Assembly: GCA_031256725.1 (NCBI GenBank)
Contig: JAIRQE010000021.1
Coordinates: 208,051-240,050, forward strand
Direction: 5' to 3'
DNA length: 32,000 bases
From: Propionibacteriaceae bacterium
GTDB lineage: Bacteria > Actinomycetota > Actinomycetes > Propionibacteriales > Propionibacteriaceae
Part shown: positions 3,107 through 21,394 of the stretch, piece after piece
How positions within the stretch are numbered: the first letter of the stretch is position 1
Layout: the number at the start of each line of letters is the position of its first letter
Program-made: the position numbers and the translations under genes
The notes under the pieces: model-generated
Database searches by the model: none
Told to the model about the DNA's origin: nothing
What the model saw: the letters and a program-made list of their open reading frames with translations, nothing else

Positions 3107-3548
3107 TGACCTGATAGACTTGTCCTTGGTCCCCCGTACGGCGGTACCTCCCCCAACCCCTCCAGGGCCGGAAGGCAGCAAAGGTAAGGGAGCTCTACTG
3201 GGTGTACGGGGGGCTCTTCTGTTTTCAGGGAGAGTCCGAAAATTTCAGAGAGAGTCCGAAAACCTCCTACAAACAATAGAGCTTGCTAGAAAGCGCCCTA
3301 GTAGCGCGGGCTTCCGTTCATGAACTGGAAACGTTACCGGAATTATGTTCACGCTCACACTTTTCTGGATTTTTTTGAAACCCCTTTCCACAAGGGAAGA
3401 TAGTAAATTCAGGTCATTTTGCCGTCTGTGATCCTTAGAATTGTCAGTTGCTTAAGTTCCCCAAAAGCGTAGAGTTATCGACGAAATCATAATAGTTGTG
3501 GGTCCCGAGAAAGGGCGCGCAACACAATCGAAGGTTTGGGGGGACGAA

Positions 3549-8274: not shown

Positions 8275-8362
8275 GGAGGATTCGCCTAGAGGCCTATGGC
8301 GCTCGCTTGGAAAGCGGGTTGGGTTCACGCCCTCACGAGTTCGAATCTCGTATCCTCCGCCA
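8275..8362 (+). tRNA. tRNA-Ser (anticodon GGA), CCA encoded
   Basis: Hand-folded cloverleaf. Acceptor GGAGGAT/ATCCTCC, D-stem GCC/GGC, anticodon stem CTCGC/GCGGG with loop TTGGAAA, long variable arm TTGGGTTCACGCCCTC, T-arm ACGAG-TTCGAAT-CTCGT, discriminator G, CCA. Confidence 0.95.
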
Positions 8363-8422
8363 TATGCTTCTTACTCAAACCACAAGAATGGGTAAAGGGC
8401 ATGTAGGTATCGTTTTGTTCTG
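8340..8422 (+). repeat. Left direct repeat of the island (attL-like): tRNA-Ser T-arm/3' end plus ~60 bp downstream
   Basis: TTCGAATCTCGTATCC (8340-8355) is identical to 21281-21296. GCCATATGCTTCTTACTCAAACCACAAGAATGGGTAAAGGGCATGTAGGTATCG... (8359-8422) matches 21331-21394 at about 54 of 64 positions in a hand alignment. Confidence 0.8.
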
Positions 8423-8423
8423 A

Positions 8424-8447
8424 GTCGCCCATTTGGGCGGCTTTTTC
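8424..8447 (+). terminator. Rho-independent terminator after tRNA-Ser
   Basis: GTCGCCC-ATTT-GGGCGGC (7-bp stem including one G-U pair) followed by TTTTTC. Confidence 0.6.
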
Positions 8448-8726
8448 GTCTTCCAGTTCACTCCTGTTCGCGGATTTTGCCTTTGTCTGGCCACCGGTGA
8501 GCGTGTGTGGCCTGCTCGGGGTTGTGGGCAAGTTCTGGGCTTGAACCGCCCGCAGCCTGCTTGTCTGCGTTCACGGCGGTTTGCCCTGCAACTTGCCCGA
8601 GGTTGACCAGCTCTGAACAGAAGAACGCTCAGCAATTGGTTGAAAAAGCCATCAAGGAGATTCGCGCACCACCTCCCTGACTACTATTTCAACTCCTGTG
8701 AGCCGAAATGGTCACACCTCCCATAA

Positions 8727-11700
8727 ATGTCGCTACCAGTGCCTAGGATAGGAAATGTGTATTTGACGGTGACAGACCTCTTAGCTCAACTTGCTGCTTC
8801 TGCGACCTCTGAGAAGGACAAAGGCGACAAGTTCGAGCGTCTTGTCCGTAAGTTTCTTCAACTGGATACAGCCTGGGCAAGTCGCTTCTCAGAAGTGTTT
8901 ATGTGGACGGAGTGGCCAGGGCGAGACGGGCAACCTGACAGGGGAATAGATCTGGTTGCTATTGACCGAGAGACTCGTGCGCCGTGGGCTGTCCAATGCA
9001 AGTTCTATGCCCCTGATCACTATCTGACCAAGCCGGACATTGATTCCTTCTTGGCTGAGTCTGGGAAGCACCCCTTTGTGGGTAGGCTCATTGTTTCCAC
9101 CACCGAGCGTTGGAACCCAGCTGCCGAAGCATCCATTCAGAACCAACAGATCCCTGTTCAACGCATTGGGATGACAGATCTCCTTGATTCGTCTATCGAC
9201 TGGTCCCACTTCTCGTTTACCAAACCAGAGGACCTTCCGCTCAAACCGAAGAAGAAGCTTCGCCCTCACCAAGATCAGGCTCTCGCAGCAGTTCATGAGG
9301 GTTTGGCTACCCATGATCGAGGCAAGCTCATCATGGCTTGCGGTACGGGAAAGACCTTCACGAGTCTCAGGATTGCTGAGTCAGAAGTGGGCTCAGGTGG
9401 GTCAGTTCTGTTCCTGGTCCCGTCAATTGCCCTCCTTTCTCAATCTCTCAAAGAATGGTCTTTAGAAGCGGAAACACCGTTACGTACTTTCGCTGTATGC
9501 TCAGATTCTAAGGTGGGCAAAGACAAGGGTGGCGAGGGTGAAGACATCTCGATTGTTGATCTGGAGATCCCGGCCACAACAGATCCAACTCGACTGATCA
9601 CCCAGGTTCAAGGTAACCCTGACGCTGGAAAAGATCGAATGACAGTAGTCTTCTCCACCTACCAGTCAATCGACGTCATCCACCAAGCCCAAGACCACGG
9701 CTTAGGTAGATTCGATCTGATCATCTGCGATGAGGCTCACCGTACGACTGGCGCAACATTGTCTGGAACGAGCGAGTCAGCCTTCGTGAAAATCCACGAC
9801 GATAACTACATCGGTGGAGCCAAGCGGCTCTACATGACGGCCACCCCACGTATCTATGACGATGCATCAAAGGCTAAAGCTGGGCAAGCCGATGCACTTT
9901 TGTCGTCAATGGATGACGAGGATCTTTATGGTCCTGAGTTCCATCGTCTCGACTTCGGTGAAGCCGTCGCTTTAGGGCTGCTCTCTGACTATAGGGTCGT
10001 AATCCTCACCGTACCGGAGGATTCAGTCTCTCGTATGATGCAGTCTGCTTTCGCCGTCAATTCAGAGTTGAACCTCCCAGACGCCGCCAAGATTATTGGT
10101 TGTTGGAATGGTCTGGCCAAACGCGGTGGGGAGCAGGACTTCCCAACTGATCCTGAACCCATGCGCCGAGCGGTTGCCTTCGGAGCCGACATCAAGACAT
10201 CAAAACTGTTTACAGAAGAGTTCGGCACGGTCGCAGGTCATTATGCTGATCTCCTCGAAGAAAACTCGACCACCATCGAGTCTGATGGTTCCGTCATTGT
10301 CGAAGATCAGGACCTCCTAGACACCGAAGTGCACCACGTTGACGGCACGATGAACATCCTCACCCGTAACGCCGCTCTTGACTGGCTGAGAAGCGAACCG
10401 CCAGACGGCCATTGCCGTATCCTCTCAAATGCTCGCTGCCTAGCTGAAGGCGTGGATGTACCAGCCCTGGATGCCGTCATCTTCCTCAACCCCCGCAAAT
10501 CTGAAGTCGATGTCGTACAAGCGGTGGGCAGGGTCATGCGCCAAGCCCCAGGCAAGAAGTACGGATACATCATCCTTCCCATAGGTATCCCCGCAGGCGA
10601 GACCCCTCATGAGGCCCTCCGCCGTAATGACCGCTTTTCTGTGATCTGGAAAGTTCTCCAGGCTTTGAGGGCCCATGATTCCCGCTTCAATGCGATGATT
10701 AACCAGATCGAGTTAAATTCCCAACCGCCAGCTCAACTCAGAGTCATTGGTGTGGATCTGCCAGAACCAGGGGAGAGGAAGACCGATCCGGCCACCCCTG
10801 ATCTTCAAGCGATGCTTCCTATGGATTGGCAGGAATGGCGTGATGCGATCTATGCCAAGATCGTCGACAAGGTGGGTTCTCGAAGGTACTGGGAAGATTG
10901 GGCCAAGGATGTGGCTGATATCGTCGAAGCCCACACCGCTCGCCTCACAGCCCTTGTGGAATCTGGTGATTGGAAGATTCAAGCAGCCTTCACGAGTTTC
11001 CTCGGCGCACTCAGAGCGAACCTGAATGATTCGATTGACACCGAGCAAGCAATCTCGATGCTTTCCCAGCACATGATCACCAAGCCAGTCTTTGATGCCC
11101 TCTTCGAGGACTACTCCTTCTCCGCCCACAACCCTGTAGCCCAGGTCATGCAGGGAATGCTGGATGCTTTAGAGGGAAGCAACCTTGAGGCCGAGACAGC
11201 GGCCCTAGACAAGTTCTACACCTCAGTACGAGAACGAATCCAAGGCATCGACAACGCCCAAGGCAAACAACGAGTACTCATGGAACTCTATGAAAAGTTC
11301 TTCCGCCTAGCCTTCAAGAAAACCGCTGAGTCCTTGGGTATCGTCTACACCCCAGTCGAGATCGTTGACTTCATTATCCGAGCGGTGAACGATCTCCTTC
11401 AAGAACACTTCGGTCAAACTCTCAGTGACAAGGGTGTACACATCCTCGACCCCTTCACTGGCACTGGTACTTTTATCGTGCGCCTCCTAGAATCTGGGCT
11501 CATCAAACCCAAGGACTTGGTACGAAAGTACGAGGAGGAGTTGCACGCCAACGAGATCCTGTTGTTGGCGTACTATATCGCAGCCGCAAATATAGAGGTC
11601 ACGTTCAGGGAACTTCAACGCGACGATGTTTGCCGCAATGCAGGTTGTACATGCCCCGATTATGAGCCCTTCCCTGGAATCGTTCTAACCGACACCTTCC

Positions 11701-13640
11701 AGATGACCGAGACTGGGGACACTCTGGACAATCAAGTCTTCGTTGCCAACAATGATCGAGCTTCTACTCAATTGGAGTTACCCATTCGTGTGATCCTTGG
11801 CAACCCGCCCTACAGTGTCGGCCAAACTAGTGGAAATGATGACAACGCCAACCTGAAGTATTCGACCTTGGATGCCAGAATAGAATCAACCTACGCTGCT
11901 CAATCCAAAGCGGTGACAGGGAGAACAACCTATGACTCATATATTCGCGCAATGCGCTGGGCATCTGATCGGCTAGGTCAGACAGGAATAGTCTCCCTTA
12001 TTACGAACAATGGCTATCTGAATGCAAACAGTGCAGATGGACTTCGCCTGACGTTATGCGACGAGTATGACGACATCTACGTGCTAAACCTACGCGGTAA
12101 TTCTAGAGATCCTGGACAAGCAGCGAAACGAGAAGGTGGCAATGTCTTTGGAGTCAGGGTTGGAGTTGCAATCATCTTCCTTGTAAAGAGACAGGGTGCT
12201 CCTTCTATGGAAAGGATCAGGTACTACGAAACTGAAGACCACATGGTAAAGGGGCATAAACTACGGATGCTTTCAGAGACTCATCTAGGAGATATTCCTT
12301 GGCAAGACATCTATCCCAATCCTGACGGTGACTGGACTTTACAGAGAAGTGCGCTCTTTGAGACTTACCTTCCCCTGATCCATAAACAATCACTCAAAGC
12401 CGTCTTCGTGCAACACAGTCTTGGTCTTGGTAGTAATCGTGATGCCTGGGTGTACAACTCGTCGCTGTCGTCCCTGAAGATGAACGTGGAGCGGATGGTC
12501 GAGAGGTATAACGAGGAAGTCGCGCGCCTTTCGGATGCATCTCCATCCGACCGTAAGGTCTTGGCTGACAGAGACCCACGGGCGATAAGTTGGTCATCAA
12601 GTCTGGATTCCTGGCTCGCTCAAGGAAGAGCAATTGACATAGCACAAGGACATTGGATGGATGCTCAGTATCGTCCGTTTTGCCGACAGATGGTTTATTG
12701 CGGACCCGGTTTGATCCACCGACTTGGCGGGATTCCATCGTTTTTTCCTACACCAGCCCATGACAACATGGGATTCACCTTGACTGGTGCATCATCACAC
12801 TACGAGTTTGCGATTCTCGCCACGACTTGTCTTCCCGATCTGCACTTGCTTGACACAGGACAGTTCTTTGCTCGTTGGCGCTATGAGTCGATCCCCACCG
12901 ACTCGAAACAAGAGGCGTTCCATTTTGAAGAGCAAGACACCAAAGGGGGATATCGAAAGGTCGACAACATAACAGATTCTACTTTGCGCAGCTATCAAGA
13001 ACGCTATGGCATGCAGGTTACGAAGGATGACATCTTCTTTCACGTTTATGGTTTGCTCCACAGCACCGACTATCGTGAATCATTTGCTGTAGATCTGAAA
13101 AAGATGCTCCCACGCATTCCCATGGTTGCCGATCTGAAAACTTTCGAGGTTTTCGTGACTGCTGGACGAGAACTATTCGATCTGCATACCGGATACGAAA
13201 AGGTCGATCCGTGCCCAAACCTAATTGTCACGGGTGACGATCCCCAAGGCGACCCCTATGACTGGTACCGAGTGGACAAGATGCGTTACGGTGGCAAGTC
13301 CACCACCAAGGATAAAACCACCGTGATCTGTAACCCCCGAATCACAGTGACCGGCATTCCGCTTCAAGCCCAGGAGTACATGCTAGGAGCCCGAAGCGCC
13401 CTAGACTGGATCCTAGAGCGCTACCAAGTAAAAATCGACAAACCTTCGGGAATAGTGAACGACCCCAATGACTGGTCTCGCGAGCACCACCAACCTCGCT
13501 ACATCCTCGACCTCCTAACCCGAATCGTCACTGTGAGCATTCGAACTGTCGAGATTGTGGATTCTCTACCCAACCTTGAATTCAACGAAGACGGGGCTGT
13601 GGCAAGATGCCTTTCCGACACTCCGAAGGAGGAAAACTAA
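8727..13640 (+). CDS. Type ISP-like single-polypeptide restriction-modification enzyme (Mrr-type nuclease + SF2 DEAH translocase + gamma-class N6-adenine methyltransferase + target-recognition domain)
   Basis: 1637 aa. The N-terminus DKGDKFERLVRKFL...RGIDLVAID...WAVQCKFY has the Mrr-like D-(x)n-QxK PD-(D/E)xK motif. Walker A MACGTGKT is at nt 9339-9356. Motif II DEAH is at 9729-9740. TATP and QAVGRVMR form motifs III and VI. The AdoMet motif DPFTGTGTF starts at 11448. The catalytic NPPY is at 11802-11813. About 600 aa of C-terminal region remain. Domain order and size match the LlaGI/LlaBIII class. Confidence 0.85.
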   Translation: MSLPVPRIGNVYLTVTDLLAQLAASATSEKDKGDKFERLVRKFLQLDTAWASRFSEVFMWTEWPGRDGQPDRGIDLVAIDRETRAPWAVQCKFYAPDHYLTKPDIDSFLAESGKHPFVGRLIVSTTERWNPAAEASIQNQQIPVQRIGMTDLLDSSIDWSHFSFTKPEDLPLKPKKKLRPHQDQALAAVHEGLATHDRGKLIMACGTGKTFTSLRIAESEVGSGGSVLFLVPSIALLSQSLKEWSLEAETPLRTFAVCSDSKVGKDKGGEGEDISIVDLEIPATTDPTRLITQVQGNPDAGKDRMTVVFSTYQSIDVIHQAQDHGLGRFDLIICDEAHRTTGATLSGTSESAFVKIHDDNYIGGAKRLYMTATPRIYDDASKAKAGQADALLSSMDDEDLYGPEFHRLDFGEAVALGLLSDYRVVILTVPEDSVSRMMQSAFAVNSELNLPDAAKIIGCWNGLAKRGGEQDFPTDPEPMRRAVAFGADIKTSKLFTEEFGTVAGHYADLLEENSTTIESDGSVIVEDQDLLDTEVHHVDGTMNILTRNAALDWLRSEPPDGHCRILSNARCLAEGVDVPALDAVIFLNPRKSEVDVVQAVGRVMRQAPGKKYGYIILPIGIPAGETPHEALRRNDRFSVIWKVLQALRAHDSRFNAMINQIELNSQPPAQLRVIGVDLPEPGERKTDPATPDLQAMLPMDWQEWRDAIYAKIVDKVGSRRYWEDWAKDVADIVEAHTARLTALVESGDWKIQAAFTSFLGALRANLNDSIDTEQAISMLSQHMITKPVFDALFEDYSFSAHNPVAQVMQGMLDALEGSNLEAETAALDKFYTSVRERIQGIDNAQGKQRVLMELYEKFFRLAFKKTAESLGIVYTPVEIVDFIIRAVNDLLQEHFGQTLSDKGVHILDPFTGTGTFIVRLLESGLIKPKDLVRKYEEELHANEILLLAYYIAAANIEVTFRELQRDDVCRNAGCTCPDYEPFPGIVLTDTFQMTETGDTLDNQVFVANNDRASTQLELPIRVILGNPPYSVGQTSGNDDNANLKYSTLDARIESTYAAQSKAVTGRTTYDSYIRAMRWASDRLGQTGIVSLITNNGYLNANSADGLRLTLCDEYDDIYVLNLRGNSRDPGQAAKREGGNVFGVRVGVAIIFLVKRQGAPSMERIRYYETEDHMVKGHKLRMLSETHLGDIPWQDIYPNPDGDWTLQRSALFETYLPLIHKQSLKAVFVQHSLGLGSNRDAWVYNSSLSSLKMNVERMVERYNEEVARLSDASPSDRKVLADRDPRAISWSSSLDSWLAQGRAIDIAQGHWMDAQYRPFCRQMVYCGPGLIHRLGGIPSFFPTPAHDNMGFTLTGASSHYEFAILATTCLPDLHLLDTGQFFARWRYESIPTDSKQEAFHFEEQDTKGGYRKVDNITDSTLRSYQERYGMQVTKDDIFFHVYGLLHSTDYRESFAVDLKKMLPRIPMVADLKTFEVFVTAGRELFDLHTGYEKVDPCPNLIVTGDDPQGDPYDWYRVDKMRYGGKSTTKDKTTVICNPRITVTGIPLQAQEYMLGARSALDWILERYQVKIDKPSGIVNDPNDWSREHHQPRYILDLLTRIVTVSIRTVEIVDSLPNLEFNEDGAVARCLSDTPKEEN

Positions 13641-15616
13641 TGACTAAGTACTACCTCGATTTCTTGCCAGAACACGTTGAACGATCTTCTGTGCACCGAA
13701 ACGATCCAGTAAAAGCCGTTTTTGAGATCATTTGGAATTGCCTGGATGCCGATGCTCATGCAGTAGTTGTCGCGCTCAAGAGAAATGAGGCAGGTGGTAT
13801 CACTGGAGTCTCCATCAAAGATGATGGGCATGGTATAACTCCTGAAGCCGCCATATCGGAGTTCAAGCCAGTTGGTCCATCCTGGAAATCGACTCCAAGA
13901 TCAGTGAGTAAAAAGGAGGGGCGTCCTCTGCATGGTAAACACGGAGAAGGCAGATTGAGGGCATTTGCCCTGGGTCAGGATGTTCAATGGGTGAGTATTG
14001 CTGAAGACACGGGCAAGATCTGGAAAGAAACAACCATTCAGGCAAGTGGTAGTGAACTGCTCGTAGTGGATATTTCAGACAAAACAACGACTTCGCGCGC
14101 ATCTGGCACTCATTTCACCACCCAGGATGGTGACCGACTAGGAAAACTGGAAGCGGAGGCAATGATGGTGAAGCTGACGAATGAGTTTGCTGCCTACTTG
14201 CTTTCTTTTCCTAGTGTGAGCATCTCTTACGAAGGCAGAACTATTGATCCGAAGTCTGTAATGAGATCAGATTTTGTCAGTGACTTGGCATGGGAATTCG
14301 GGGGTGTCGAGCATCGGGCTGAGATTAGGATCATTGAGTGGCAAGACAATCGTGGAAGGGTCGTGTACTTGGCGGATCAGTCGGGTATACCTCTAGAAAA
14401 ACTAGACAAGTCCCCTGCTAGTGACTTTTCGTACGCCGCTTATATTATGTGGGAGGATATGCCAGAGCATCGAGGCGAGTGGTTATTGGAAAAACTCGAA
14501 ACCGAACCATCAATACTTCATGTGTTATTGGATATGTCTCTCACTTTCATCAAGGACTACTTCAGCTCCCGACGTGCAGAGCGTCGTCGCGAAATTGTCG
14601 ATCAATGGAAGCGGGACAAGACATATCCATATGATGCGGAACCGGCGACTCCTGAAGATCAAGTCGAACAAGCCATGTTTGATGTCGTGGCAACCGCAGT
14701 GCATTCAAACGTTCCCAATTCTCCTAATCAACAGCGTATGACACTGACCCTGCTGAAAGAAGCACTTCAAAAACGCCCTGATAACCTTACAAGTCTCCTT
14801 GATCAGTATCTGAACCTTAGCCTCGAGGAGCGTGAGCAGCTCGAATATCTTTTAGGAGATATCGGTCTTTCTAGGATTATTAGAGCCACGGCCAATGTGA
14901 GTGACAGGTTCCGTTTCTTAAGGGGTTTAGAACTCATGATTGATGACCCAGAGGCGAACAAACTGATTCGAGAGCGAGACCACCTTCATAAGATCCTAGA
15001 GCATGAATTGTGGGTGTTCGGAGAACAGTTCAATTCAATGATCAGTGAACGGGGTCTGACGGCAGTTCGCGATAGGCATAGGGATGTTCTTGGTTTGGAG
15101 CCTGTTTCAGGCAGTGTTCGTAGAGCGGATGGCTCTCTTGGCCGGGTTGATCTTTTGTTGTCTGCAACGACTCGTGAATCTGGAAGGAACCGACACTTAG
15201 TCGTTGAGTTGAAGGCTCCCAGTGTGGATGCAAAAAGTGAAGAGTTAACTCAGCTTCATTCGTACGCGGAAGCAGTAGCAAGAGACTCACATTTTGGTGG
15301 TGTACAGGTTCTCTGGGAGTTTTACTTGGTAACCGCAAGAATTCATTCATCCATTGTTAATCAGACTAGACAGTCGAATCGACCTCCTGGACTTGTATCG
15401 GAGTTCCCCCTAGATGATGGGTATGGTTCGCAGATAAGGGTTTGGGTGAAGACTTGGGCGGAAATAATCGAGGATAATCGTCAACGCTTGAATTACTACC
15501 AAGAGCATCTTCAAACAGATCACAGTTTAGAAGATGCAAAAGAGTATCTAGTGAGTCATTATCCGACAATCATTCCAGAGGCATTTATGCTTGAGACAGA
15601 TCCAGAAGGCACATAA
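13640..15616 (+). CDS. GHKL (MORC/paraMORC-like, HATPase_c_3-type) ATPase fused to a C-terminal Shedu/DUF4263-like PD-(D/E)xK nuclease domain
   Basis: ATG 13640 overlaps the upstream TAA by 1 nt (TAATG), with a strong SD (GAAGGAGGAAAA) 4-14 nt upstream. The ORF-track start at 13607 is less likely. The Bergerat-fold motifs are the N-box FEIIWNCLDADA, G1 box DDGHGIT and G2 box HGKHGEGRL. The C-terminus has ILEHELWVFGEQF...GRVDLLL(D at nt 15149)...HLVVELKAP(E 15206, K 15212)...LTQLHSYAE. This fits the D...ExK...Q..Y layout of Shedu-type nucleases. Confidence 0.7.
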   Translation: MTKYYLDFLPEHVERSSVHRNDPVKAVFEIIWNCLDADAHAVVVALKRNEAGGITGVSIKDDGHGITPEAAISEFKPVGPSWKSTPRSVSKKEGRPLHGKHGEGRLRAFALGQDVQWVSIAEDTGKIWKETTIQASGSELLVVDISDKTTTSRASGTHFTTQDGDRLGKLEAEAMMVKLTNEFAAYLLSFPSVSISYEGRTIDPKSVMRSDFVSDLAWEFGGVEHRAEIRIIEWQDNRGRVVYLADQSGIPLEKLDKSPASDFSYAAYIMWEDMPEHRGEWLLEKLETEPSILHVLLDMSLTFIKDYFSSRRAERRREIVDQWKRDKTYPYDAEPATPEDQVEQAMFDVVATAVHSNVPNSPNQQRMTLTLLKEALQKRPDNLTSLLDQYLNLSLEEREQLEYLLGDIGLSRIIRATANVSDRFRFLRGLELMIDDPEANKLIRERDHLHKILEHELWVFGEQFNSMISERGLTAVRDRHRDVLGLEPVSGSVRRADGSLGRVDLLLSATTRESGRNRHLVVELKAPSVDAKSEELTQLHSYAEAVARDSHFGGVQVLWEFYLVTARIHSSIVNQTRQSNRPPGLVSEFPLDDGYGSQIRVWVKTWAEIIEDNRQRLNYYQEHLQTDHSLEDAKEYLVSHYPTIIPEAFMLETDPEGT

Positions 15617-15876
15617 AGAATTGAGGTGATATCGCTAGAAAGATGACATGGCCTAGTACTTCTATGGACTGGACCTCAATGCCGTTTGAACCATCTGCGA
15701 ATGACTTGGTCTCGATGGGTGCTTTACAAGGAGAAACGCAGACTGGAAGTGATTTTCCGATCAAAATGCTAGGAACTGATCTGCAAACGTCACACGATTC
15801 ATTGGTCATTAACAAGGGGAAACGGAGATTTCCGTGGACGATGTCGATGAATTCTATTCAGAACCGTCTGCAAACG

Positions 15877-17553
15877 TCACAGTGCTTTCCAGATTGCCTG
15901 TGCATGGGAACCAACGTTCCGGATTCTTCCTCGTCGCCTCATTTTCGTAAGCAGGTTAGATAGCTTCGCCGCTTTGTCATCGATCCCATCGCCAAACTTG
16001 TCCCATAGCAAAGACTCCAGGTCAGCACGTGAAGCGCTTCCGTGTTGGGATAGGTAGGTAAGAATGGTCTTCTCGAAATAAGTATCACTGAGAGCTCTAG
16101 TTTGAGTGCTAGCTAGTGATCCAGCTAGTTGAGCTATTTTGGCTGAGACAAATAACTGCGGAGAGCGTCCTTCGATCAGTTCTTGTCTCCGAAGCCTTTG
16201 TCGGTCTACTCGATTGATTGGTAGACCTTTTTGCACACGATCTAAAGCCAGTATGTCAGCCAATGGAAGGTCACTTCGTTCCATAAGCACGGTTGTGTAT
16301 GCCTCATCCACGACTCGTCCGTATAGGTTGAACTTCACATGTGTGGGATCGGATAGGTCGTAATCGGGAAGAGGTAGGAAGCGATTGCGTTGAAGGGTTG
16401 TCATTTTGCGGATGCCGAAACCCATGGTCTCGATCATTCCGACGCTTGCCATGGCTTCGACTAGGAATGGGTTGCGGTAGTCTTCGGGCACCTTATCTGT
16501 GGTCACGTAATCCTCTGGTCGGCCTTCGAAGAATGAGCCACGGTTGACTATTTCTAGACGATCTACGTACTCGGTGACGATGATGCGTGCTCTGCTGGTG
16601 TAGTCCTGGTGAGCCAGGGCGTTGTGGATGGCCTCTAGGACGACCCATCGGTCGTACTTGTGGACTGTCTCCGCGATCAATGTGGCTGGTCTGAGCAGCT
16701 TGATTTCTAGGTTGCGTATGCGCTGGTAGAGATTGGTGGTGTTGAGCAAGAAGGGGGTCGTGAAGTGATGGTAGCCCTCTTCTTGGCCGACTAGGTGCCA
16801 TGTGATCTGGGCCATATGCGGGTTGAGTTTTCCTCCAGCAGCATATGTGCCAAGTAAAAGGATTGTGGCTCGGGTTATGCAGCCATCGCGGGTGAGACGG
16901 GCTCGTTCGAGGAACTCTTCCGTGCCCCAGTTGGCGATGTCGTCGGCAACCTCAGGATGCTTAGCAGCAAACTCGCTCCTAGCTTTAGCTAGGGCTTTCT
17001 CATCGAGATCCTTGATGGTTGCACCAGGCACGGGCACTGCCGTCCAGTCATTGTCGATTTTTTGGCGGCGAATGGTGTCCTGTTTATCAAGGCTCAACGG
17101 CACGAGGGTTTCTCCATCACGCGCGTAATAGTGACCTTTCCATGACATGGGAATTCCGCGGGGTGCTGAAGGTACTTCTAGGAGCAGAACCCGCCCATGT
17201 GTCAGCAGTTCATGGATTCCACGAAAGCCTGATCCCGGTCGAGTGCCTTGCTCTATGTGATCGCGGAGGGTTCTTTCGTTCTTTTCTCCACGCAAATAGT
17301 CGGTGCCTACGATGGTTCTGGAGTTATCCACGCCCAGTACAATCCAAGCTACTTCTTGACCAGCAAGGTTTGCTTCATTGGCGAGGGCTGTAAAGTAGCG
17401 CCCTAACTTGTCTTCGTCGAATTGTCTCTTGGCTTCTTTGAACTCGACAAGTGGACCTTCCCGACTGGCTAGAAGACGGTTAAGAGTTTCCTGGAGTTCT
17501 CTTTGGGATGCGCTGTGGCTCACCCTGATTACACTACTGGTTGGGTCGGACAT
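15877..17553 (-). CDS. AlbA_2 (Schlafen-like, 'divergent AAA') + HATPase_c_4 + C-terminal wHTH protein (often mis-annotated as RecG-like/transcriptional regulator)
   Basis: 558 aa. The N-terminus GPLVEFKEAKRQFDEDKLGRYFTALANEANLAGQEVAWIVLGVDNSRTIVG is the AlbA_2 signature (E-x-K ... AfAN ... l-x-x-GV-x-d). The middle VLEAIHNALAHQDYTSRARIIVTEYVDRLEIVNRGSF is the HATPase_c_4 signature. The C-terminal ILTYLSQHGSASRADLESLL is wHTH-like. An AAGGAAGGA RBS lies upstream. Confidence 0.8.
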   Translation of the reverse strand: MSDPTSSVIRVSHSASQRELQETLNRLLASREGPLVEFKEAKRQFDEDKLGRYFTALANEANLAGQEVAWIVLGVDNSRTIVGTDYLRGEKNERTLRDHIEQGTRPGSGFRGIHELLTHGRVLLLEVPSAPRGIPMSWKGHYYARDGETLVPLSLDKQDTIRRQKIDNDWTAVPVPGATIKDLDEKALAKARSEFAAKHPEVADDIANWGTEEFLERARLTRDGCITRATILLLGTYAAGGKLNPHMAQITWHLVGQEEGYHHFTTPFLLNTTNLYQRIRNLEIKLLRPATLIAETVHKYDRWVVLEAIHNALAHQDYTSRARIIVTEYVDRLEIVNRGSFFEGRPEDYVTTDKVPEDYRNPFLVEAMASVGMIETMGFGIRKMTTLQRNRFLPLPDYDLSDPTHVKFNLYGRVVDEAYTTVLMERSDLPLADILALDRVQKGLPINRVDRQRLRRQELIEGRSPQLFVSAKIAQLAGSLASTQTRALSDTYFEKTILTYLSQHGSASRADLESLLWDKFGDGIDDKAAKLSNLLTKMRRRGRIRNVGSHAQAIWKAL

Positions 17554-18196: not shown

Positions 18197-18742
18197 TCAC
18201 CTACTGCTTCCGCTAAGGATGCACCCTTCCCGATCAGGATGATGGTGTAGATAGGTGAGGTCTGCTGTCTTGTCAATGGGCGTGTTGGCATCCTGAACCC
18301 GGGTGTAGATGCTATTCGCTCGAACAGTGCGCGGCCTGGCACCAGCAGGCGCCTCAGTGAAGTCCTCCGTAATAAGGTACAGCGTATGGGAGGTATTTTT
18401 GACGATGAGAACATCAACCTGATGCCCAACCAGGGTGAAAGTCTGAACCAGCGCAGTGGGTCGCATTCCTCCCTGGAACTTCTTGTAGCGCAGGAAGTTC
18501 GTCAAGTCGTTGGTGTTCCTTCTGCCCTGGTCATTCTCTACTCCCACAACTGCGAAGCCATTGGCTTCATTGACCCCTATGATGATGTAGGCGTCTCTAT
18601 CCTCAAGGTTGTTCGCCATGCAGATGATGTCGTGTAACAGTTCGGCGCCCAAGGGCCACTGCTTCTTGAAGTCCCAATAGCCGCCCTCGCGACAGTCGCT
18701 GATGAGGCTTAAGACCACATCAGCAAGCTCATCATCAGTCAT
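18197..18742 (-). CDS. AlbA_2 (Schlafen-like) domain-only protein, possibly the truncated N-terminal half of a longer AlbA_2/HATPase_c_4 paralog
   Basis: 181 aa. GGYWDFKKQW...LLHDIICMANNLEDRDAYIIIGVNEANGFAVVGVEND...SIYTRVQDANTPI fits the AlbA_2 pattern. The next 100 bp downstream hold the HATPase_c_4 fragment. Confidence 0.65.
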   Translation of the reverse strand: MTDDELADVVLSLISDCREGGYWDFKKQWPLGAELLHDIICMANNLEDRDAYIIIGVNEANGFAVVGVENDQGRRNTNDLTNFLRYKKFQGGMRPTALVQTFTLVGHQVDVLIVKNTSHTLYLITEDFTEAPAGARPRTVRANSIYTRVQDANTPIDKTADLTYLHHHPDREGCILSGSSR

Positions 18743-18857: not shown

Positions 18858-19868
18858 TCACTGTTTACCCTCGACTTCCCGCTGAAGGCCCTTGACCGCC
18901 TCCAAGTACGCCTCTTCGATATCAGATGGTTCGACGGTGATCCTGGCCCGATACTTGGCGTACTCACTCTCGGCCTTGGTCACGGCTTGTTGGTGGCTGA
19001 CGCTACCTGGCCCGTCGAGTGTCTTGGCCTCCATTGCCACGATGAGCCGGTCCAGATGAGCGAGCCAGTCACGCATGTACGTCAATTCATGGTTCTGGGC
19101 GCGGAATTCGGCGGCATCGAAGTACGCCGACACCAGAGTGTTCAGCCGCTTCAACTCGCCCTCGTCGAGGTAATTCTTGGTGATGCCCACTTCGGCCTTG
19201 GTCGGCTGGCTTCCACTGAATGACAGTAACCCCATGAACGGCTTCCCCGCATCAGCGCGAGTCACGATGACCTCAGCAGCCGTTTGGCCGTGGGCGGCGA
19301 AGTGTAGCTTGTTCTGAACGACGCGGAAGAACTGGACGCTCTCCTCGCTGTGCGGATTGTAATCGACGCTGGTCGCGTACAGGTCGAGCACTTGCCGGTA
19401 CAGCACCTTCTCCGATGACCTGATGTCGCGGATGCGGTCGAGCAGTTCTTTCCAGTACGAGCCACCACCGAGGTTTTTCAGGCGGGCATCGTCCATCGTG
19501 AAGCCCTTGATTAGGTACTCTTTCAGCCGCTCCGTCGCCCAGATGCGGAATTGCGTGGCAACGCTTGAGCGCACCCGGTAGCCGAGCGAGATAATGAGGT
19601 CGAGGTTGTAAAACGGCATGACGCGCGAGACCTGTCGTGAGCCTTCGGTGCGAACCTGTCGGAAATCCCGACAGGTTGCCGCCTCGCTGAGTTCACCTTC
19701 GGCATAGATATTTTGGATGTGTTCCACCACGTTGGTGCGGGAGGTCTGGAACAGATCAGCCAGCTGTTGTTGGCTTAGCCACATTGTCTCCCCATCAAGA
19801 TGCACGTCGATGGCCGGTTGCCCATCGCGCTGGTACAGCACAATCTCACCCGTGGGTTGCTCGGTCAT
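18858..19868 (-). CDS. rhuM: RhuM-family protein (virulence/R-M-island-associated DNA-binding protein)
   Basis: 336 aa. GEIVLYQRDGQPAIDVHLDGETMWLSQQQLADLFQTSRTNVVEHIQNIYAEGEL...YNLDLIISLGYRVRSSVATQFRIWATERLKEYLIKGFTMDDARLK is the conserved RhuM core. Confidence 0.85.
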   Translation of the reverse strand: MTEQPTGEIVLYQRDGQPAIDVHLDGETMWLSQQQLADLFQTSRTNVVEHIQNIYAEGELSEAATCRDFRQVRTEGSRQVSRVMPFYNLDLIISLGYRVRSSVATQFRIWATERLKEYLIKGFTMDDARLKNLGGGSYWKELLDRIRDIRSSEKVLYRQVLDLYATSVDYNPHSEESVQFFRVVQNKLHFAAHGQTAAEVIVTRADAGKPFMGLLSFSGSQPTKAEVGITKNYLDEGELKRLNTLVSAYFDAAEFRAQNHELTYMRDWLAHLDRLIVAMEAKTLDGPGSVSHQQAVTKAESEYAKYRARITVEPSDIEEAYLEAVKGLQREVEGKQ

Positions 19869-19950: not shown

Positions 19951-21112
19951 TTACCTAACCCCTGTTCTTCGATCTCTTGGGATTGAATCTCCATCAGAGT
20001 CCCGCTGGTAATCCAACTCTGCCCTCTGGTAGCGTAACGCCGTCGTGGCGGATGTGTGCCCACCCACCGCCATGACAGCTCGCAGATTACCGCCCGAATG
20101 ACGGTAGATCGCCGTTAGCCCGGTGACACGGGTACCGTGGAAAATGTAACCGCCATCATCAGTGAGTAATCGCTTAATCTTCTCGTCCTCAGTTGCATCA
20201 GCCACCTGTTGGCAGGCCTTCTTGAATGCTTTCAACCATGCCGCTGACCGTACCGGCTTGCCATCTGCTGACCAGAACAGCAAACCATGTGGGCCAAGCT
20301 GGGTGTGATTCAGAAGATGATCGCGCACATCCGGCATTAACGCACTTGGAATGATCAGGCGCCTGTTACTCCGCTCGGTCTTCAGTCCACCGATGGGGTT
20401 ATCCCAGTCCCGCTTGTTGATGGAGTGCTGAATGTGTAGGACATCATCATCGAAATCCTGGCGTTGCAACGCCCGTACCTCTCCTGAGCGCAACCCCAGC
20501 ACCCCGGCCAGCAGTACGCCCAAACGGAACCATGGCGGCATCTCGTCAGCGATGGCATACAACACCGGCAGTGGATCGTTGTTGCGTTCCTTCGATGGTT
20601 TACCAGCGCCCTTGATCCTCGCCGGGTTCACATCGATGGCGGCGTTCATGATCGCCCGCAACAGGCCGTACGCCTGATGGCACGAAGCAGCCCGCTCGAC
20701 GACCGGCAGGCTCTGCCACCATGCCCGAACCTGGCGGCGGGTCAGTTCCTCGATCAGTACGTCGCCGAGACCATGAGTCGTCCATGCAGGCGGATCGCCT
20801 GGTCTCGATATACGCCGCACCGAAGGTTGCGATTGTCGGAGCGTCCTTGCGAGCTTGCTCGGCTTGCCGGGCTTCTTCCACCCGCTCGGCAGGAGGGCTC
20901 CACCGGTCAGTCTCGATCAGGCGACGCTCCCTCTCCAACCAGACCCGAGCAGCACCCTCAGTCTGGAAGCTGCGTGATGCGAAGTACTCCGCACTCGGCT
21001 GTACCCCAGAAATGCCACCATGCCGGTATGAGGCCGTGAAGTTACCCGACTTTTGCCGTCATACCGTGCCCCACGTGGACCGGTAGCCACTCGGTTTCCT
21101 TGCTCTTGGCAT
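19951..21112 (-). pseudogene. int: Tyrosine recombinase/phage-type integrase, disrupted (in-frame TGA at codon 18 and a frameshift/deletion near 20800-20830)
   Basis: The minus-strand ATG at 21112 gives MPRARKPSGYRSTWGTV*(TGA = 21061-21059)RQKSGNFTASYRH...FQTEGAARVWLERERRLIETDRWSPP...TFGAAYIETRR. The reading then continues only in another frame: ...HGLGDVLIEELTRRQVRAWW...GLRSGEVRAL...FHGTRVTG...GGHTSATTALRYQ. These contain the catalytic R, HxxR and H..Y boxes. The linker between TFGAAYIETRR and GLGDV is about 20 aa shorter than usual. Confidence 0.75.
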
Positions 21113-21280
21113 AACTCTTATCTCTCGCGTGAATCTCAGCTCCGCTACGTTATCGCTACGCTATGTACCTATAACAAGCATACTCAAGCGGGTGCAACTG
21201 AATACACTCTTCATCTACAGCACCTTGTCAGGTGCGTGTTTTCAGTTCTGGCAAGGAGCGAGGAAACCACCCCGCTCGTA

Positions 21281-21394
21281 TTCGAATCTCGTATCCCCGC
21301 TGGTCAGTCACAAAGAGAAGGATTAAGATCGCTATATGTTCCTTACTCAAACCACAAGAATAGGTAAAGGGCATGTAAATATTGTTTGGTTTGG
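21281..21394 (+). repeat. Right direct repeat of the island (attR-like): degenerate tRNA-Ser 3' fragment, ~31-bp insertion, then the shared ~64-bp segment
   Basis: TTCGAATCTCGTATCC-CCGC (21281-21299) is followed by an unrelated TGGTCAGTCACAAAGAGAAGGATTAAGATC. Then comes GCTATATGTTCCTTACTCAAACCACAAGAATAGGTAAAGGGCATGTAAATATTG.... The upstream bases do not form a T-stem, so this is a fragment and not a second tRNA. Confidence 0.8.

What the first reader, a model, noticed from the sequence alone, without database searches (positions are those of the whole stretch)
8727..15616. Type ISP-like R-M enzyme translationally coupled to a GHKL-ATPase/nuclease: candidate uncharacterised two-gene defence system
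Seen in sequence: the 1637-aa ORF has the full Type ISP layout. It has the Mrr-type D..QxK nuclease, GTGKT/DEAH/TATP/QxxGR helicase motifs, FxGxG + NPPY methylase motifs and a long C-terminal TRD. Its TAA stop overlaps the ATG of the next gene by one base (TAATG at 13638-13642). A strong Shine-Dalgarno (GAAGGAGG) is embedded in its last codons, which indicates obligatory co-expression. Established knowledge: characterised Type ISP enzymes (LlaGI, LlaBIII) act as stand-alone single polypeptides. Comparative genomics (Iyer, Abhiman and Aravind 2008) noted MORC/paraMORC-type GHKL ATPases embedded in R-M loci. To my knowledge no Type ISP + GHKL-nuclease pair has been functionally studied. Inference: the partner could be a second effector. 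It might be an ATP-dependent clamp/nuclease recruited to stalled translocases, or a backup triggered by anti-restriction. The two-gene unit sits in a tRNA island next to other defence-type genes.
Basis: partly seen in the sequence, partly recalled or inferred. Interest (0 to 1): 0.85.

Follow-up and report, generated by a model that had tools for sequence, protein, structure and literature searches.

The report
Two stacked defence genes, not a pair
A complete Type ISP restriction-modification enzyme and a stand-alone ATPase-nuclease defence gene share one operon on a tRNA-linked island, but comparison with about 200 related loci shows they are two independent, known kinds of system, not a new two-gene system.

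Summary
ORF 8727-13640 is a full Type ISP enzyme that matches LlaBIII end to end. Its TAA overlaps the ATG of a 658-aa gene (TAATG at 13638-13642), and GAAGGAGG lies 7 nt upstream. The 658-aa protein has an N-terminal GHKL ATPase with a transducer-like domain and a C-terminal PD-(D/E)xK nuclease (D504, E523-x-K525, Q538xxxY542).

The interpretation as a dedicated two-gene system is not supported. Of 185 homolog loci with upstream flank, only one has an ISP upstream: a Phaeobacter plasmid, with a 4-bp overlap. That pairing arose independently. The two GHKL proteins are 33% identical and the two ISPs 44%, and each has closer unpaired relatives.

The closest ISP relatives carry other downstream genes. 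Two of these also overlap the ISP stop by 4 bp: a Gabija-like gene pair and an AAA_13 ATPase. So the overlap reflects tight packing, not partnership.

The GHKL-nuclease matches the paraMORC3 architecture. It resembles the single-gene GHKL-Shedu VcSduA, which defends alone, but it lacks the DUF4263 signature. About 5% of family members sit directly behind restriction genes of various types. A loose synergy with R-M therefore remains possible.

The parts
8275..8362 (+). tRNA-Ser (GGA), the integration target at the left edge of the island
   Evidence: ARAGORN.
8330..8419 (.). Left copy of an imperfect direct repeat: the tRNA-Ser 3' end plus 62 nt downstream. attL-like.
   Evidence: the repeat finder families D1 and D3. 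Pairwise alignment.
8727..13640 (+). Type ISP restriction-modification enzyme, 1637 aa, a single polypeptide
   Evidence: Pfam domains. PADLOC REase_MTase_IIG at 2063 bits. End-to-end match to LlaBIII 4xqk and LlaGI 5ffj.
8862..9227 (+). ISP Mrr-type PD-(D/E)xK nuclease domain (aa 46-167)
   Evidence: PF13156 Mrr_cat_2, E 2e-42.
9252..10541 (+). ISP SF2 helicase-like translocase (aa 176-605) with GTGKT, DEAH, TATP and QAVGR
   Evidence: PF04851 and PF00271. Motifs read in the translation.
10887..11264 (+). ISP coupler domain (aa 721-846)
   Evidence: PF22240, E 7e-49.
11274..12056 (+). ISP N6-adenine methyltransferase (aa 850-1110) with FTGTG and NPPY
   Evidence: PF02384 and PF07669. Motifs read in the translation.
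12402..13514 (+). ISP C-terminal target-recognition domain (aa 1226-1596)
   Evidence: PF18135 Type_ISP_C, E 4e-95.
13625..13632 (+). Shine-Dalgarno GAAGGAGG for the downstream gene, inside the last ISP codons
   Evidence: Read in the sequence.
13638..13642 (+). TAATG: the ISP stop and the GHKL start overlap by one base
   Evidence: Read in the sequence. ORF table.
13640..15616 (+). GHKL ATPase / PD-(D/E)xK nuclease, 658 aa. paraMORC3-like, a single-gene defence candidate.
13640..14644 (+). GHKL ATP-binding domain plus a transducer (S5-like) domain, aa 1-335. Motifs E29/N33, D61xGxG65, G99-G104, T157.
   Evidence: PF13589. The AF2 model has pLDDT of about 90 over most of this span. Foldseek aligns 340-450 columns to TRAP1/Hsp90, GyrB-43K, MORC2/3 and MLH1, E down to 3e-11.
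14915..15613 (+). C-terminal PD-(D/E)xK nuclease domain (aa 426-658)
   Evidence: Weak HSDR_N_2 hits in 67 of 69 and 34 of 40 members. All top Foldseek hits are PD-(D/E)xK nucleases. As a phmmer query it finds 1031 representative clusters at E <= 1e-3.
15149..15265 (+). Catalytic core codons: D504, E523-L-K525, Q538-x-x-x-Y542
   Evidence: Invariant in alignments A1, A3, A8 and A9.
15643..15963 (+). 106-aa ORF 26 nt downstream of the GHKL gene. No family match. Unclear whether it is a real gene.
   Evidence: It was a singleton in the neighbour clustering.
15877..17553 (-). Schlafen AlbA_2 + HATPase_c_4 protein (558 aa), island cargo
   Evidence: Pfam. Weak PADLOC pAgo-associated hits.
18197..18742 (-). 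AlbA_2 protein (181 aa), PADLOC candidate PDC-S50
   Evidence: Pfam. PADLOC E 2e-57.
18858..19868 (-). RhuM-family protein, PADLOC candidate PDC-S05
   Evidence: Pfam E 1e-103. PADLOC E 2e-142.
19951..20820 (-). Tyrosine recombinase/integrase of the island
   Evidence: PF00589.
21271..21391 (.). Right copy of the tRNA-Ser 3'-end repeat (85-87% identity, with a 31-nt insertion). attR-like.

Best explanation
The segment carries two autonomous defence modules of known kinds. They are packed head to tail and co-transcribed on an integrase-bearing island of about 13 kb inserted at tRNA-Ser.

Gene 1 is a Type ISP restriction-modification enzyme. By homology to LlaGI and LlaBIII, its C-terminal TRD reads an asymmetric site. 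The gamma-class methyltransferase marks one adenine on host DNA. On unmodified DNA the SF2 motor translocates downstream using ATP. The Mrr-type nuclease cuts when two enzymes collide head-on.

Gene 2 is a single-polypeptide GHKL ATPase with a transducer domain and a PD-(D/E)xK nuclease (paraMORC3 architecture). The inferred mechanism is an ATP-driven dimeric clamp that gates its own C-terminal nuclease against invading DNA. This is the mechanism proposed for the GHKL-Shedu VcSduA, where both ATPase and nuclease point mutants lose protection.

The one-base stop/start overlap and the embedded Shine-Dalgarno ensure co-expression in this genome. They reflect compact stacking of defence cargo, not a dedicated partnership.

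Shown here: domain content, motif integrity, the operon junction, the island borders, and the lack of conserved linkage. Inferred: the enzymology of both proteins and their functional independence.
For: ISP identity rests.

GHKL-nuclease anatomy:
- HATPase_c_3 match and conserved ATP motifs.
- The GHKL-plus-transducer fold matches Hsp90/TRAP1, GyrB, MORC and MLH1.
- D504/E523xK525/Q538xxxY542 is invariant from Actinomycetota to Proteobacteria and phages.
- PD-(D/E)xK-only fold hits and recurrent HSDR_N_2 hits.

Independence of the two genes:
- None of the 80 genome loci has an ISP next to the GHKL gene.
- The largest neighbour cluster there holds 6 ORFs.
- Overall, 1 of 185 loci with at least 500 bp of upstream flank has an ISP.
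- The family is large, with uniform length and architecture: 1031 representative clusters, and the top 150 are either about 640-830 aa (mostly about 650-700) with the nuclease domain at about 415-690, or shorter fragments.
- It also occurs in plasmids and in phage genomes between tail genes.

The only other ISP+GHKL pair (Phaeobacter pGal_E78, 4-bp overlap) is an independent assembly:
- ISPs 44% identical and GHKLs 33% identical.
- Each GHKL has closer unpaired relatives, at 46-48% and 50-55%.

Control for the overlap argument. ISP relatives at 62-69% identity are followed by:
- a Gabija-like AAA_15/TOPRIM gene plus UvrD, with a 4-bp overlap;
- an AAA_13 ATPase, with a 4-bp overlap;
- no defence partner at all.

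Literature:
- paraMORC3 members with C-terminal RE-fold nucleases occur as stand-alone genes (PMC2292703).
- VcSduA, with a GHKL N-terminal domain and a C-terminal PD-(D/E)xK nuclease (DUF4263) domain, protects alone next to an independent Type IV system, and E27A and K557A abolish protection (PMC12137116).
- 602 of 5,499 Shedu genes lie inside R-M loci (bioRxiv 10.1101/2023.08.10.552793).
Against: The same gene order, with translational coupling, arose twice in distant phyla (the window and the Phaeobacter plasmids).

About 8 of 177 family members lie directly behind restriction-type genes:
- Type III Res in two Gordonia species;
- Type I HsdR;
- a PstI-like REase;
- DUF499;
- a methylase plus GmrSD_N/HNH.
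This is more than random placement would give and could mean functional cooperation.

No experiment was possible. Independence is inferred from comparative genomics and from an analogue (VcSduA) whose DUF4263 signature this family lacks.

The genome scan used peptide patterns derived from actinobacterial sequences, so it was biased. The later metagenome and viral scans, which used a diverse alignment, reduce this bias but do not remove it.
Confidence: 0.75

Rival explanations
1. Loose synergy. The GHKL-nuclease is autonomous but is preferentially recruited behind restriction operons of any type. There it acts as a second line of defence. It might attack DNA ends or stalled complexes produced by restriction, or cover phages that evade or inhibit R-M. 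Co-transcription with the ISP would then be selected, though not obligatory.
For: Two independent ISP+GHKL operons have overlapping stop and start codons. Other family members lie 8-70 nt behind Type III Res (L017, L085), Type I HsdR (L131, L132), a PstI-like REase (L141), DUF499 (L143) and a methylase plus GmrSD_N/HNH (L084). Iyer et al. 2008 proposed that paraMORCs work with R-M helicases and nucleases. Gu et al. suggested that Shedu may complement R-M and BREX.
Against: Fewer than 10% of loci show such neighbours, and most upstream genes are unrelated housekeeping or mobile-element genes. The partners belong to mechanistically different restriction types, which argues against a specific interface. 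Defence genes of any kind cluster in islands. ISP genes are equally tightly followed by Gabija-like and AAA_13 genes.
Confidence: 0.17
2. Obligate two-gene system. The GHKL-nuclease is a dedicated second effector or clamp. It needs the ISP translocase for recruitment or activation, or needs its methylation for self-protection.
For: Translational coupling with a strong embedded Shine-Dalgarno. Recurrence of the pair in Phaeobacter plasmids. No paper in the searched library treats Type ISP together with GHKL or Shedu proteins.
Against: Only 1 of 185 homolog loci is ISP-linked. The nearest relatives of both window genes are unpaired. The two known pairs are not each other's closest relatives. All catalytic motifs of the GHKL protein are equally conserved in the stand-alone majority. 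This would not be expected if the window copy had specialised.
Confidence: 0.05
3. The 658-aa protein is a Type II or Type IV restriction endonuclease of the BbrUII/HgiDII kind. Those enzymes also carry an N-terminal GHKL domain. Host DNA would be protected by a methyltransferase, here possibly the ISP's.
For: NCBIfam NF050001 (BbrUII/HgiDII) and PADLOC REase_II models hit the N-terminal region. 54 of 69 family members hit PDLC03419. The profile length (659) is similar to the protein length.
Against: The hit covers only the GHKL part (aa 28-126). It scores 48.8 bits against a cut-off of 550. No methyltransferase is a conserved neighbour in the family. An unprotected sequence-specific REase could not be kept as a stand-alone gene in hundreds of genomes.
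Confidence: 0.03

Closest known systems
Type ISP restriction-modification enzymes LlaBIII and LlaGI (PDB 4xqk, 5ffj)
   Same: The domain order is the same: Mrr nuclease, SF2 translocase, coupler, N6-adenine methyltransferase, TRD. The window protein aligns with LlaBIII over residues 14-1621 (1204 bits). All six Pfam signature domains are present.
   Different: It is an actinobacterial orthologue. Its TRD is only distantly similar, so its target sequence is unknown. Here it is co-transcribed with a downstream defence gene.
paraMORC3 family of GHKL ATPases (Iyer, Abhiman and Aravind 2008, PMC2292703)
   Same: Both have an N-terminal GHKL domain with intact ATP motifs, followed by an S5/transducer-type domain. 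Both have an extra C-terminal globular domain of the restriction-endonuclease fold with E-D-ExK motifs and RecB-like features (QxxxY here). Both occur mostly as stand-alone genes without conserved neighbours, and occasionally inside R-M operons (one search compared).
   Different: The paper describes paraMORC3 as prevalent in Proteobacteria and Bacteroidetes. The window copy belongs to a large actinobacterial branch. I could not obtain the paper's seed sequences, so direct sequence membership is untested.
VcSduA, a GHKL-ATPase Shedu of Vibrio cholerae (PMC12137116), and Shedu type 1D (Gu et al., bioRxiv 10.1101/2023.08.10.552793)
   Same: It is a single polypeptide with a GHKL ATPase, an Hsp90/MORC-like middle domain and a C-terminal PD-(D/E)xK nuclease. 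VcSduA sits next to, but works independently of, a restriction system (GrwAB). The ATPase glutamate and the nuclease lysine are essential in VcSduA (E27, K557), and the equivalents E29 and K525 are conserved here.
   Different: The Pfam DUF4263 model that defines Shedu does not match this family. It matched 0 of 69 and 0 of 40 members, and appears on none of the 240 listed homologs. The PADLOC SduA model hits weakly in 13 of 69 members. Solved Shedu structures rank only 9th and 10th among weak fold hits. The nuclease domain looks closer to HSDR_N_2/RecB-like nucleases.
Defence-island stacking behind Type ISP genes (Gabija-like and AAA_13 genes in L208 and L083)
   Same: In ISP genes 67-68% identical to the window's, the start of an unrelated downstream defence gene overlaps the ISP stop codon by 4 bp. 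The junction style is the same as in the window.
   Different: The downstream cargo differs: a GajA/GajB-type pair, or an AAA_13 ATPase, instead of the GHKL-nuclease.

Membership tests
Type ISP R-M | N-terminal Mrr-type PD-(D/E)xK nuclease | tested here: met
   PF13156, aa 46-167, E 2e-42.
Type ISP R-M | SF2 helicase-like ATPase with Walker A (GTGKT), DEAH and motif VI | tested here: met
   PF04851 and PF00271. Motifs read in the translation.
Type ISP R-M | ISP coupler domain between motor and methylase | tested here: met
   PF22240, full length 1-126/126, E 7e-49.
Type ISP R-M | Gamma-class N6-adenine methyltransferase (FxGxG, NPPY) fused in the same polypeptide | tested here: met
   PF02384 and PF07669. 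FTGTG and NPPY read.
Type ISP R-M | Type ISP C-terminal specificity domain, and overall collinearity with LlaBIII/LlaGI | tested here: met
   PF18135, E 4e-95. Residues 14-1621 align to residues 14-1578 of 4xqk_A.
Type ISP R-M | ATP-driven translocation and cleavage on head-on collision; hemimethylation of an asymmetric site | not testable with these tools
   Needs biochemistry or methylome data.
paraMORC3 (GHKL-S5-RE nuclease) | GHKL domain with intact ATP-binding motifs | tested here: met
   PF13589, E 2e-15. E29, N33, D61, G63, G65, G102 and G104 are invariant in all three family alignments. G99 is invariant in two and at least 90% conserved in the third.
paraMORC3 (GHKL-S5-RE nuclease) | S5/transducer-type domain after the GHKL domain | tested here: met
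   The confident AF2 model of aa 1-335 aligns over 340-450 columns with the GHKL-plus-middle domains of TRAP1, GyrB-43K, MORC2/3 and MLH1.
paraMORC3 (GHKL-S5-RE nuclease) | C-terminal restriction-endonuclease-fold domain with E-D-ExK motifs | tested here: met
   Invariant E454/E456, D504, E523xK525 and Q538xxxY542. HSDR_N_2 and PDDEXK_9 hits. All top fold hits are PD-(D/E)xK nucleases.
paraMORC3 (GHKL-S5-RE nuclease) | Sequence membership with the family's published seed proteins | not tested
   Seed sequences and the additional file are not held.
Shedu (SduA) | DUF4263 (PF14082) nuclease domain signature | tested here: not met
   No PF14082 hit at E <= 1 in 69 actinobacterial or 40 diverse members. 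It is absent from the precomputed Pfam of 240 listed homologs. A profile of the C-terminal domain finds no Shedu chain in the PDB sequences.
Shedu (SduA) | Match to the SduA defence-system HMM or structural match to solved Shedu | tested here: inconclusive
   PADLOC PDLC00401 gives E 0.0019 for the window protein and matches 13 of 69 members, best 8e-5. Foldseek places 8ti9_C and 8ps5_A at ranks 9-10, E 0.02-0.03, behind MspJI, NucS, FokI and McrC.
Shedu (SduA) | Single-gene system: nuclease motifs I-IV with an N-terminal regulatory domain and no obligate partner | tested here: met
   Motifs are conserved. There is no conserved neighbour.
BbrUII/HgiDII Type II REase (NF050001) | Full-length match above the curated cut-off | tested here: not met
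   48.8 bits against a cut-off of 550. Only aa 28-126 match.
MutL | Match above the curated cut-off, and a MutL C-terminal dimerisation/endonuclease domain | tested here: not met
   TIGR00585 scores 27.6 against a cut-off of 180, in the GHKL motif region only. PDB MutL hits are confined to aa 19-80.
   1 of 185 GHKL loci has an ISP. None of 6 close ISP relatives has the GHKL gene.

The most novel reading that the evidence does not exclude
The GHKL-nuclease family is a general companion of restriction systems. It is repeatedly captured at the 3' end of Type ISP, I, II and III operons, twice independently behind ISP with overlapping stop and start codons. There it would sense products or failure of restriction, such as DNA ends, stalled translocases or anti-restriction proteins, and deliver a second ATP-gated cut. 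The window pair would then be a natural test case for R-M/GHKL-nuclease synergy.
Probability: 0.15. Interest if true: 0.6.

Novelty: new member of a known kind. Interest (0 to 1): 0.3.

Why it matters
The finding mainly serves as a caution. A one-base stop/start overlap and an embedded ribosome-binding site between two defence genes do not define a system. The same ISP lineage is coupled just as tightly to Gabija-like and AAA_13 genes in other genomes.

On the positive side, the window gives a clean, intact example of two things:
- an actinobacterial Type ISP enzyme;
- a very large GHKL-ATPase/nuclease family with no specific annotation: at least 1000 clusters at 50% identity, found in Actinomycetota, Proteobacteria, plasmids and phages.

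That family has no Pfam model for its nuclease domain and no entry as a system in PADLOC v2. It is probably a single-gene defence of the paraMORC3 or GHKL-Shedu type. If the minority association with restriction operons reflects real synergy, this pair and the Phaeobacter pGal_E78 pair would be convenient to test.

Tried and rejected
1. Neighbour clustering of 80 genome loci by all-against-all BLASTP found no conserved neighbour. My first conclusion, that the pairing is unique to this window, was too strong. A later plasmid search found the Phaeobacter ISP+GHKL pair. I then widened the sampling with a diverse alignment.

2. I tried several ways to place the C-terminal domain in Shedu/DUF4263:
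- Pfam on 69 and on 40 members;
- a profile against PDB sequences, which returned only spurious TPR-repeat hits;
- a separate AF2 model of aa 426-658 searched with Foldseek, which gave only weak generic PD-(D/E)xK hits.
None gave a specific link.

3. I looked for family accessions in the supplements of the Shedu and V. cholerae papers. The files were either not held or truncated.

4. A phmmer search of 1.84 billion representatives with the nuclease domain showed the family's size. Its top 150 hits all have the same architecture or are shorter fragments, so it did not reach other nuclease families.

5. The promoter and terminator scan of 8300-16200 gave counts at chance level and was uninformative.

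I re-ran it with database proteins only.

7. I considered and rejected three identities for the 658-aa protein. It is not MutL and not a BbrUII/HgiDII REase, because both scores fall far below the curated cut-offs. It is not a histidine kinase, a name some sources give it, because no HisKA domain is present and the GHKL subtype is MutL/MORC-like.

Full report
**1. Observation**

The window holds a 1637-aa ORF (8727-13640, +) followed by a 658-aa ORF (13640-15616, +). The sequence at 13620-13645 reads ACTCCGAAGGAGGAAAACTAATGACT. So the TAA stop (13638-13640) and the ATG (13640-13642) share one base, and GAAGGAGG (13625-13632) lies 7 nt before the ATG. An alternative in-frame ATG at 13607 is unlikely, because the N-termini of 20 of 22 aligned homologs coincide with the ATG at 13640.

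**2. The upstream gene is a genuine Type ISP enzyme**

Pfam finds all the expected domains in order:
- Mrr_cat_2 (aa 46-167)
- ResIII and Helicase_C (aa 176-605)
- ISP_coupler (aa 721-846)
- N6_Mtase and Eco57I (aa 850-1110)
- Type_ISP_C (aa 1226-1596)

PADLOC's fused REase-MTase model scores 2063 bits. The protein aligns with LlaBIII (4xqk) over residues 14-1621 and with LlaGI (5ffj). The family is abundant in Actinomycetota, and the closest relatives are 62-69% identical.

**3. The downstream gene**

The N-terminus matches HATPase_c_3 (aa 25-129, E 2e-15). By profile it is closest to the MutL, Topo VI-B and MORC branch of GHKL ATPases.

An AlphaFold2 model built on 69 homologs is confident over most of aa 1-335 (pLDDT about 90). 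Foldseek aligns 340-450 columns of it with the GHKL-plus-middle domains of TRAP1/Hsp90, GyrB-43K, MORC2/3 and MLH1. This region is therefore a GHKL domain plus a transducer (S5-like) module.

The C-terminal third carries E454/E456, D504, E523-L-K525 and Q538-x-x-x-Y542. These are invariant across actinobacterial, proteobacterial, plasmid and phage members. It gives weak but recurrent matches to HSDR_N_2 and PDDEXK_9 (67 of 69 and 34 of 40 members). A separate model of aa 426-658 (pTM 0.71) hits only PD-(D/E)xK nucleases, all weakly: MspJI, NucS, FokI, McrC, Shedu and HamA.

**4. Is the pair a system?**

I collected homolog loci from five sources:

| Source | Loci or records |
|---|---|
| Species-representative genomes | 80 loci |
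| Metagenomes | 80 loci |
| Viral contigs | 34 loci |
| Plasmids | 47 records with a match, 5 fetched as loci |
| Phages | 2 records, 1 fetched |

- In the 80 genome loci no ISP is present. Neighbour clustering found nothing conserved, and the largest neighbour cluster held 6 ORFs.
- Pfam on 90 co-directional upstream ORFs found 4 with ResIII. The rest formed a heterogeneous set including aconitase, PPK2, a relaxase and a transposase.
- Across all held loci, 185 have at least 500 bp of upstream flank, and exactly one has an ISP upstream. That locus is Phaeobacter gallaeciensis plasmid pGal_E78. There an annotated Type ISP gene ends in ACATGA, overlapping the ATG of the GHKL homolog by 4 bp.
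- This second pair is not a transferred copy of the window pair. The ISPs are 44% identical and the GHKL proteins 33%. The window GHKL has closer unpaired actinobacterial relatives (46-48%). The Phaeobacter GHKL has closer unpaired relatives (50-55%).

**5. View from the ISP side**

Six of the closest ISP relatives (62-69% identity) were inspected with annotated neighbours, and none has the GHKL gene:
- L208 is followed, with a 4-bp overlap, by an AAA_15/OLD-TOPRIM ATPase and a UvrD helicase. This is the Gabija gene pattern.
- L083 is followed, with a 4-bp overlap, by an AAA_13 ATPase.
- L081, L082, L207 and L209 have an unrelated small gene 800 bp away, convergent genes, or only a 28-aa convergent fragment before the contig ends.

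Overlapping stop and start codons behind this ISP lineage are therefore common and involve different downstream defence genes. The overlap shows co-expression in this genome, not functional dependence.

**6. What the GHKL-nuclease is**

With the nuclease domain alone as query, 1031 representative clusters (50% identity) match at E <= 1e-3. The best 150 are either about 640-830 aa (mostly about 650-700) with the nuclease domain at about 415-690, or shorter fragments. This is a large family with a fixed architecture. Members occur on conjugative plasmids and in Pasteurella phage genomes, between tail genes.

A protein of the same layout, V. cholerae VcSduA, protects E. coli against T1-like phages on its own. 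It needs both its ATPase glutamate and its nuclease lysine. It sits beside, but is independent of, the GrwAB restriction system (PMC12137116). Gu et al. class GHKL-bearing Shedu proteins as type 1D and report 602 of 5,499 Shedu genes inside R-M loci.

The Pfam DUF4263 signature is nevertheless absent from this family. The PADLOC SduA model hits only weakly, in 13 of 69 members. I therefore file the protein as paraMORC3-like and as working like a GHKL-Shedu, not as a demonstrated Shedu member.

**7. A residual signal**

Among 177 loci with enough flank, 60 have a plausible co-directional ORF ending within 150 bp upstream. Those that could be named include restriction-type genes:
- Type III Res, preceded by Mod where the second gene upstream was annotated (L085), in two Gordonia species (L017, L085)
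- Type I HsdR (L131, L132)
- a PstI/BsuBI REase (L141)
- DUF499 (L143)
- a methylase plus GmrSD_N/HNH (L084)
- the Phaeobacter ISP

They also include AbiEii, DUF3644, VirB11, a fumarylacetoacetase and a histidine kinase.

Roughly 5% of loci are thus directly behind restriction genes of mixed types. This fits defence-island clustering and the 11% reported for Shedu. It also leaves room for a loose, non-obligate synergy with R-M, to which I give about 0.15-0.2.

**8. Context**

The two genes lie on an island of about 13 kb bounded by an imperfect direct repeat. The repeat consists of the tRNA-Ser 3' end plus 62 nt (8330-8419 against 21271-21391, 85-87% identity).

The island also carries:
- a tyrosine recombinase (19951-20820, -)
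- a RhuM/PDC-S05 gene
- two AlbA_2 genes, one of which is PDC-S50

The flanking genes are housekeeping: a DUF7507 surface protein upstream, and a transglutaminase-like gene, tRNA-Gly, hpt, ftsH and the folate genes downstream. The source is a Propionibacteriaceae MAG.

**9. Verdict**

The proposal of a two-gene system is not supported by comparative evidence.

The best explanation (0.75) is that two autonomous defence genes of known kinds are stacked in one operon on an integrative island. Novelty: new members of known kinds. Interest is modest at 0.3. It rests mainly on the large GHKL-nuclease family, which has no specific annotation, and on its occasional recurrence behind restriction operons.

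No paper in the searched library links Type ISP enzymes with GHKL or Shedu proteins. An experimental test of the window pair or the Phaeobacter pair would therefore still be new, but I expect it to show independence.

Noticed in passing
window 8330-8419 and 21271-21391: An imperfect direct repeat (85-87% identity, with a 31-nt insertion in the right copy). It consists of the tRNA-Ser 3' end plus 62 nt of downstream sequence. It brackets an island of about 13 kb that ends with a tyrosine recombinase (19951-20820, -). These are likely attL and attR of an integrated, possibly decaying, element.
   Followed up: partly
L208 4001-12467 (ENA ERZ27257311 k141_848141): A Type ISP gene 68% identical to the window's. 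Its stop is overlapped by 4 bp by an AAA_15/OLD-TOPRIM ATPase gene, which is followed by a UvrD helicase gene. This is the Gabija pattern, and it sits next to a TrwC relaxase. So ISP genes are tightly stacked with other autonomous defence systems.
   Followed up: partly
L083 6001-13889 (ENA ERZ27257305 k141_448906): An ISP relative (67% identity, called as 1838 aa). A 791-aa AAA_13 ATPase gene follows it with a 4-bp overlap. This is another tightly coupled but different downstream partner.
   Followed up: no
L088 70-8131 (Phaeobacter gallaeciensis pGal_E78, NC_023141.1): The only other ISP+GHKL-nuclease operon found (ATGA overlap). It lies on a conjugative plasmid that recurs in five Phaeobacter records. 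A 374-aa hypothetical gene follows 23 nt downstream and has no PADLOC match.
   Followed up: partly
L087 5001-6959 (Pasteurella phage Pmp14, OR544131.1); also Pmp3: A full-length GHKL-nuclease homolog (31% identity) is encoded inside a phage genome, among hypothetical genes between the tail-protein genes and the tape-measure gene. This is a moron-like position and suggests phage-carried defence or superinfection exclusion.
   Followed up: no
L085 3404-9977 (Gordonia pseudamarae CP045809.1) and L017: The GHKL-nuclease gene lies 41 nt behind a Type III Res gene in both loci. In L085, where the neighbours were annotated, the operon is Mod (N6_N4_Mtase) then Res (ResIII/YagJ) and lies in an ICE-like region with ArdA, a resolvase and a relaxase. 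This is the clearest non-ISP case of the family sitting behind a restriction operon.
   Followed up: partly
window 15643-15963 and 15780-15881: A 106-aa ORF lies 26 nt after the GHKL gene. It has no family match and no homolog in the 80 genome loci. It contains an exact 15-nt direct repeat (TCTGCAAACGTCACA) at 15780 and 15867. Its 3' end overlaps the convergent AlbA_2 gene. It may not be a real gene.
   Followed up: no
window 15877-17553 (-), 18197-18742 (-), 18858-19868 (-): The remaining island cargo. There is a 558-aa Schlafen AlbA_2 + HATPase_c_4 protein with weak similarity to pAgo-associated PADLOC models. There is a 181-aa AlbA_2 protein matching PADLOC candidate PDC-S50 (E 2e-57). There is a RhuM protein matching PDC-S05 (E 2e-142).
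   Followed up: partly
window 3498-8126 (+): A 1542-aa protein with nine DUF7507 repeats, DUF11 repeats and DUF6923, probably a cell-surface protein. It lies just upstream of the tRNA-Ser and is unrelated to the finding.
   Followed up: no
window 8727 vs 8757: The public annotation of the ISP (P0121) is 1627 aa, starting 10 codons downstream of the ATG at 8727. Homolog alignments begin around residues 11-14, so the true start is uncertain.
   Followed up: no
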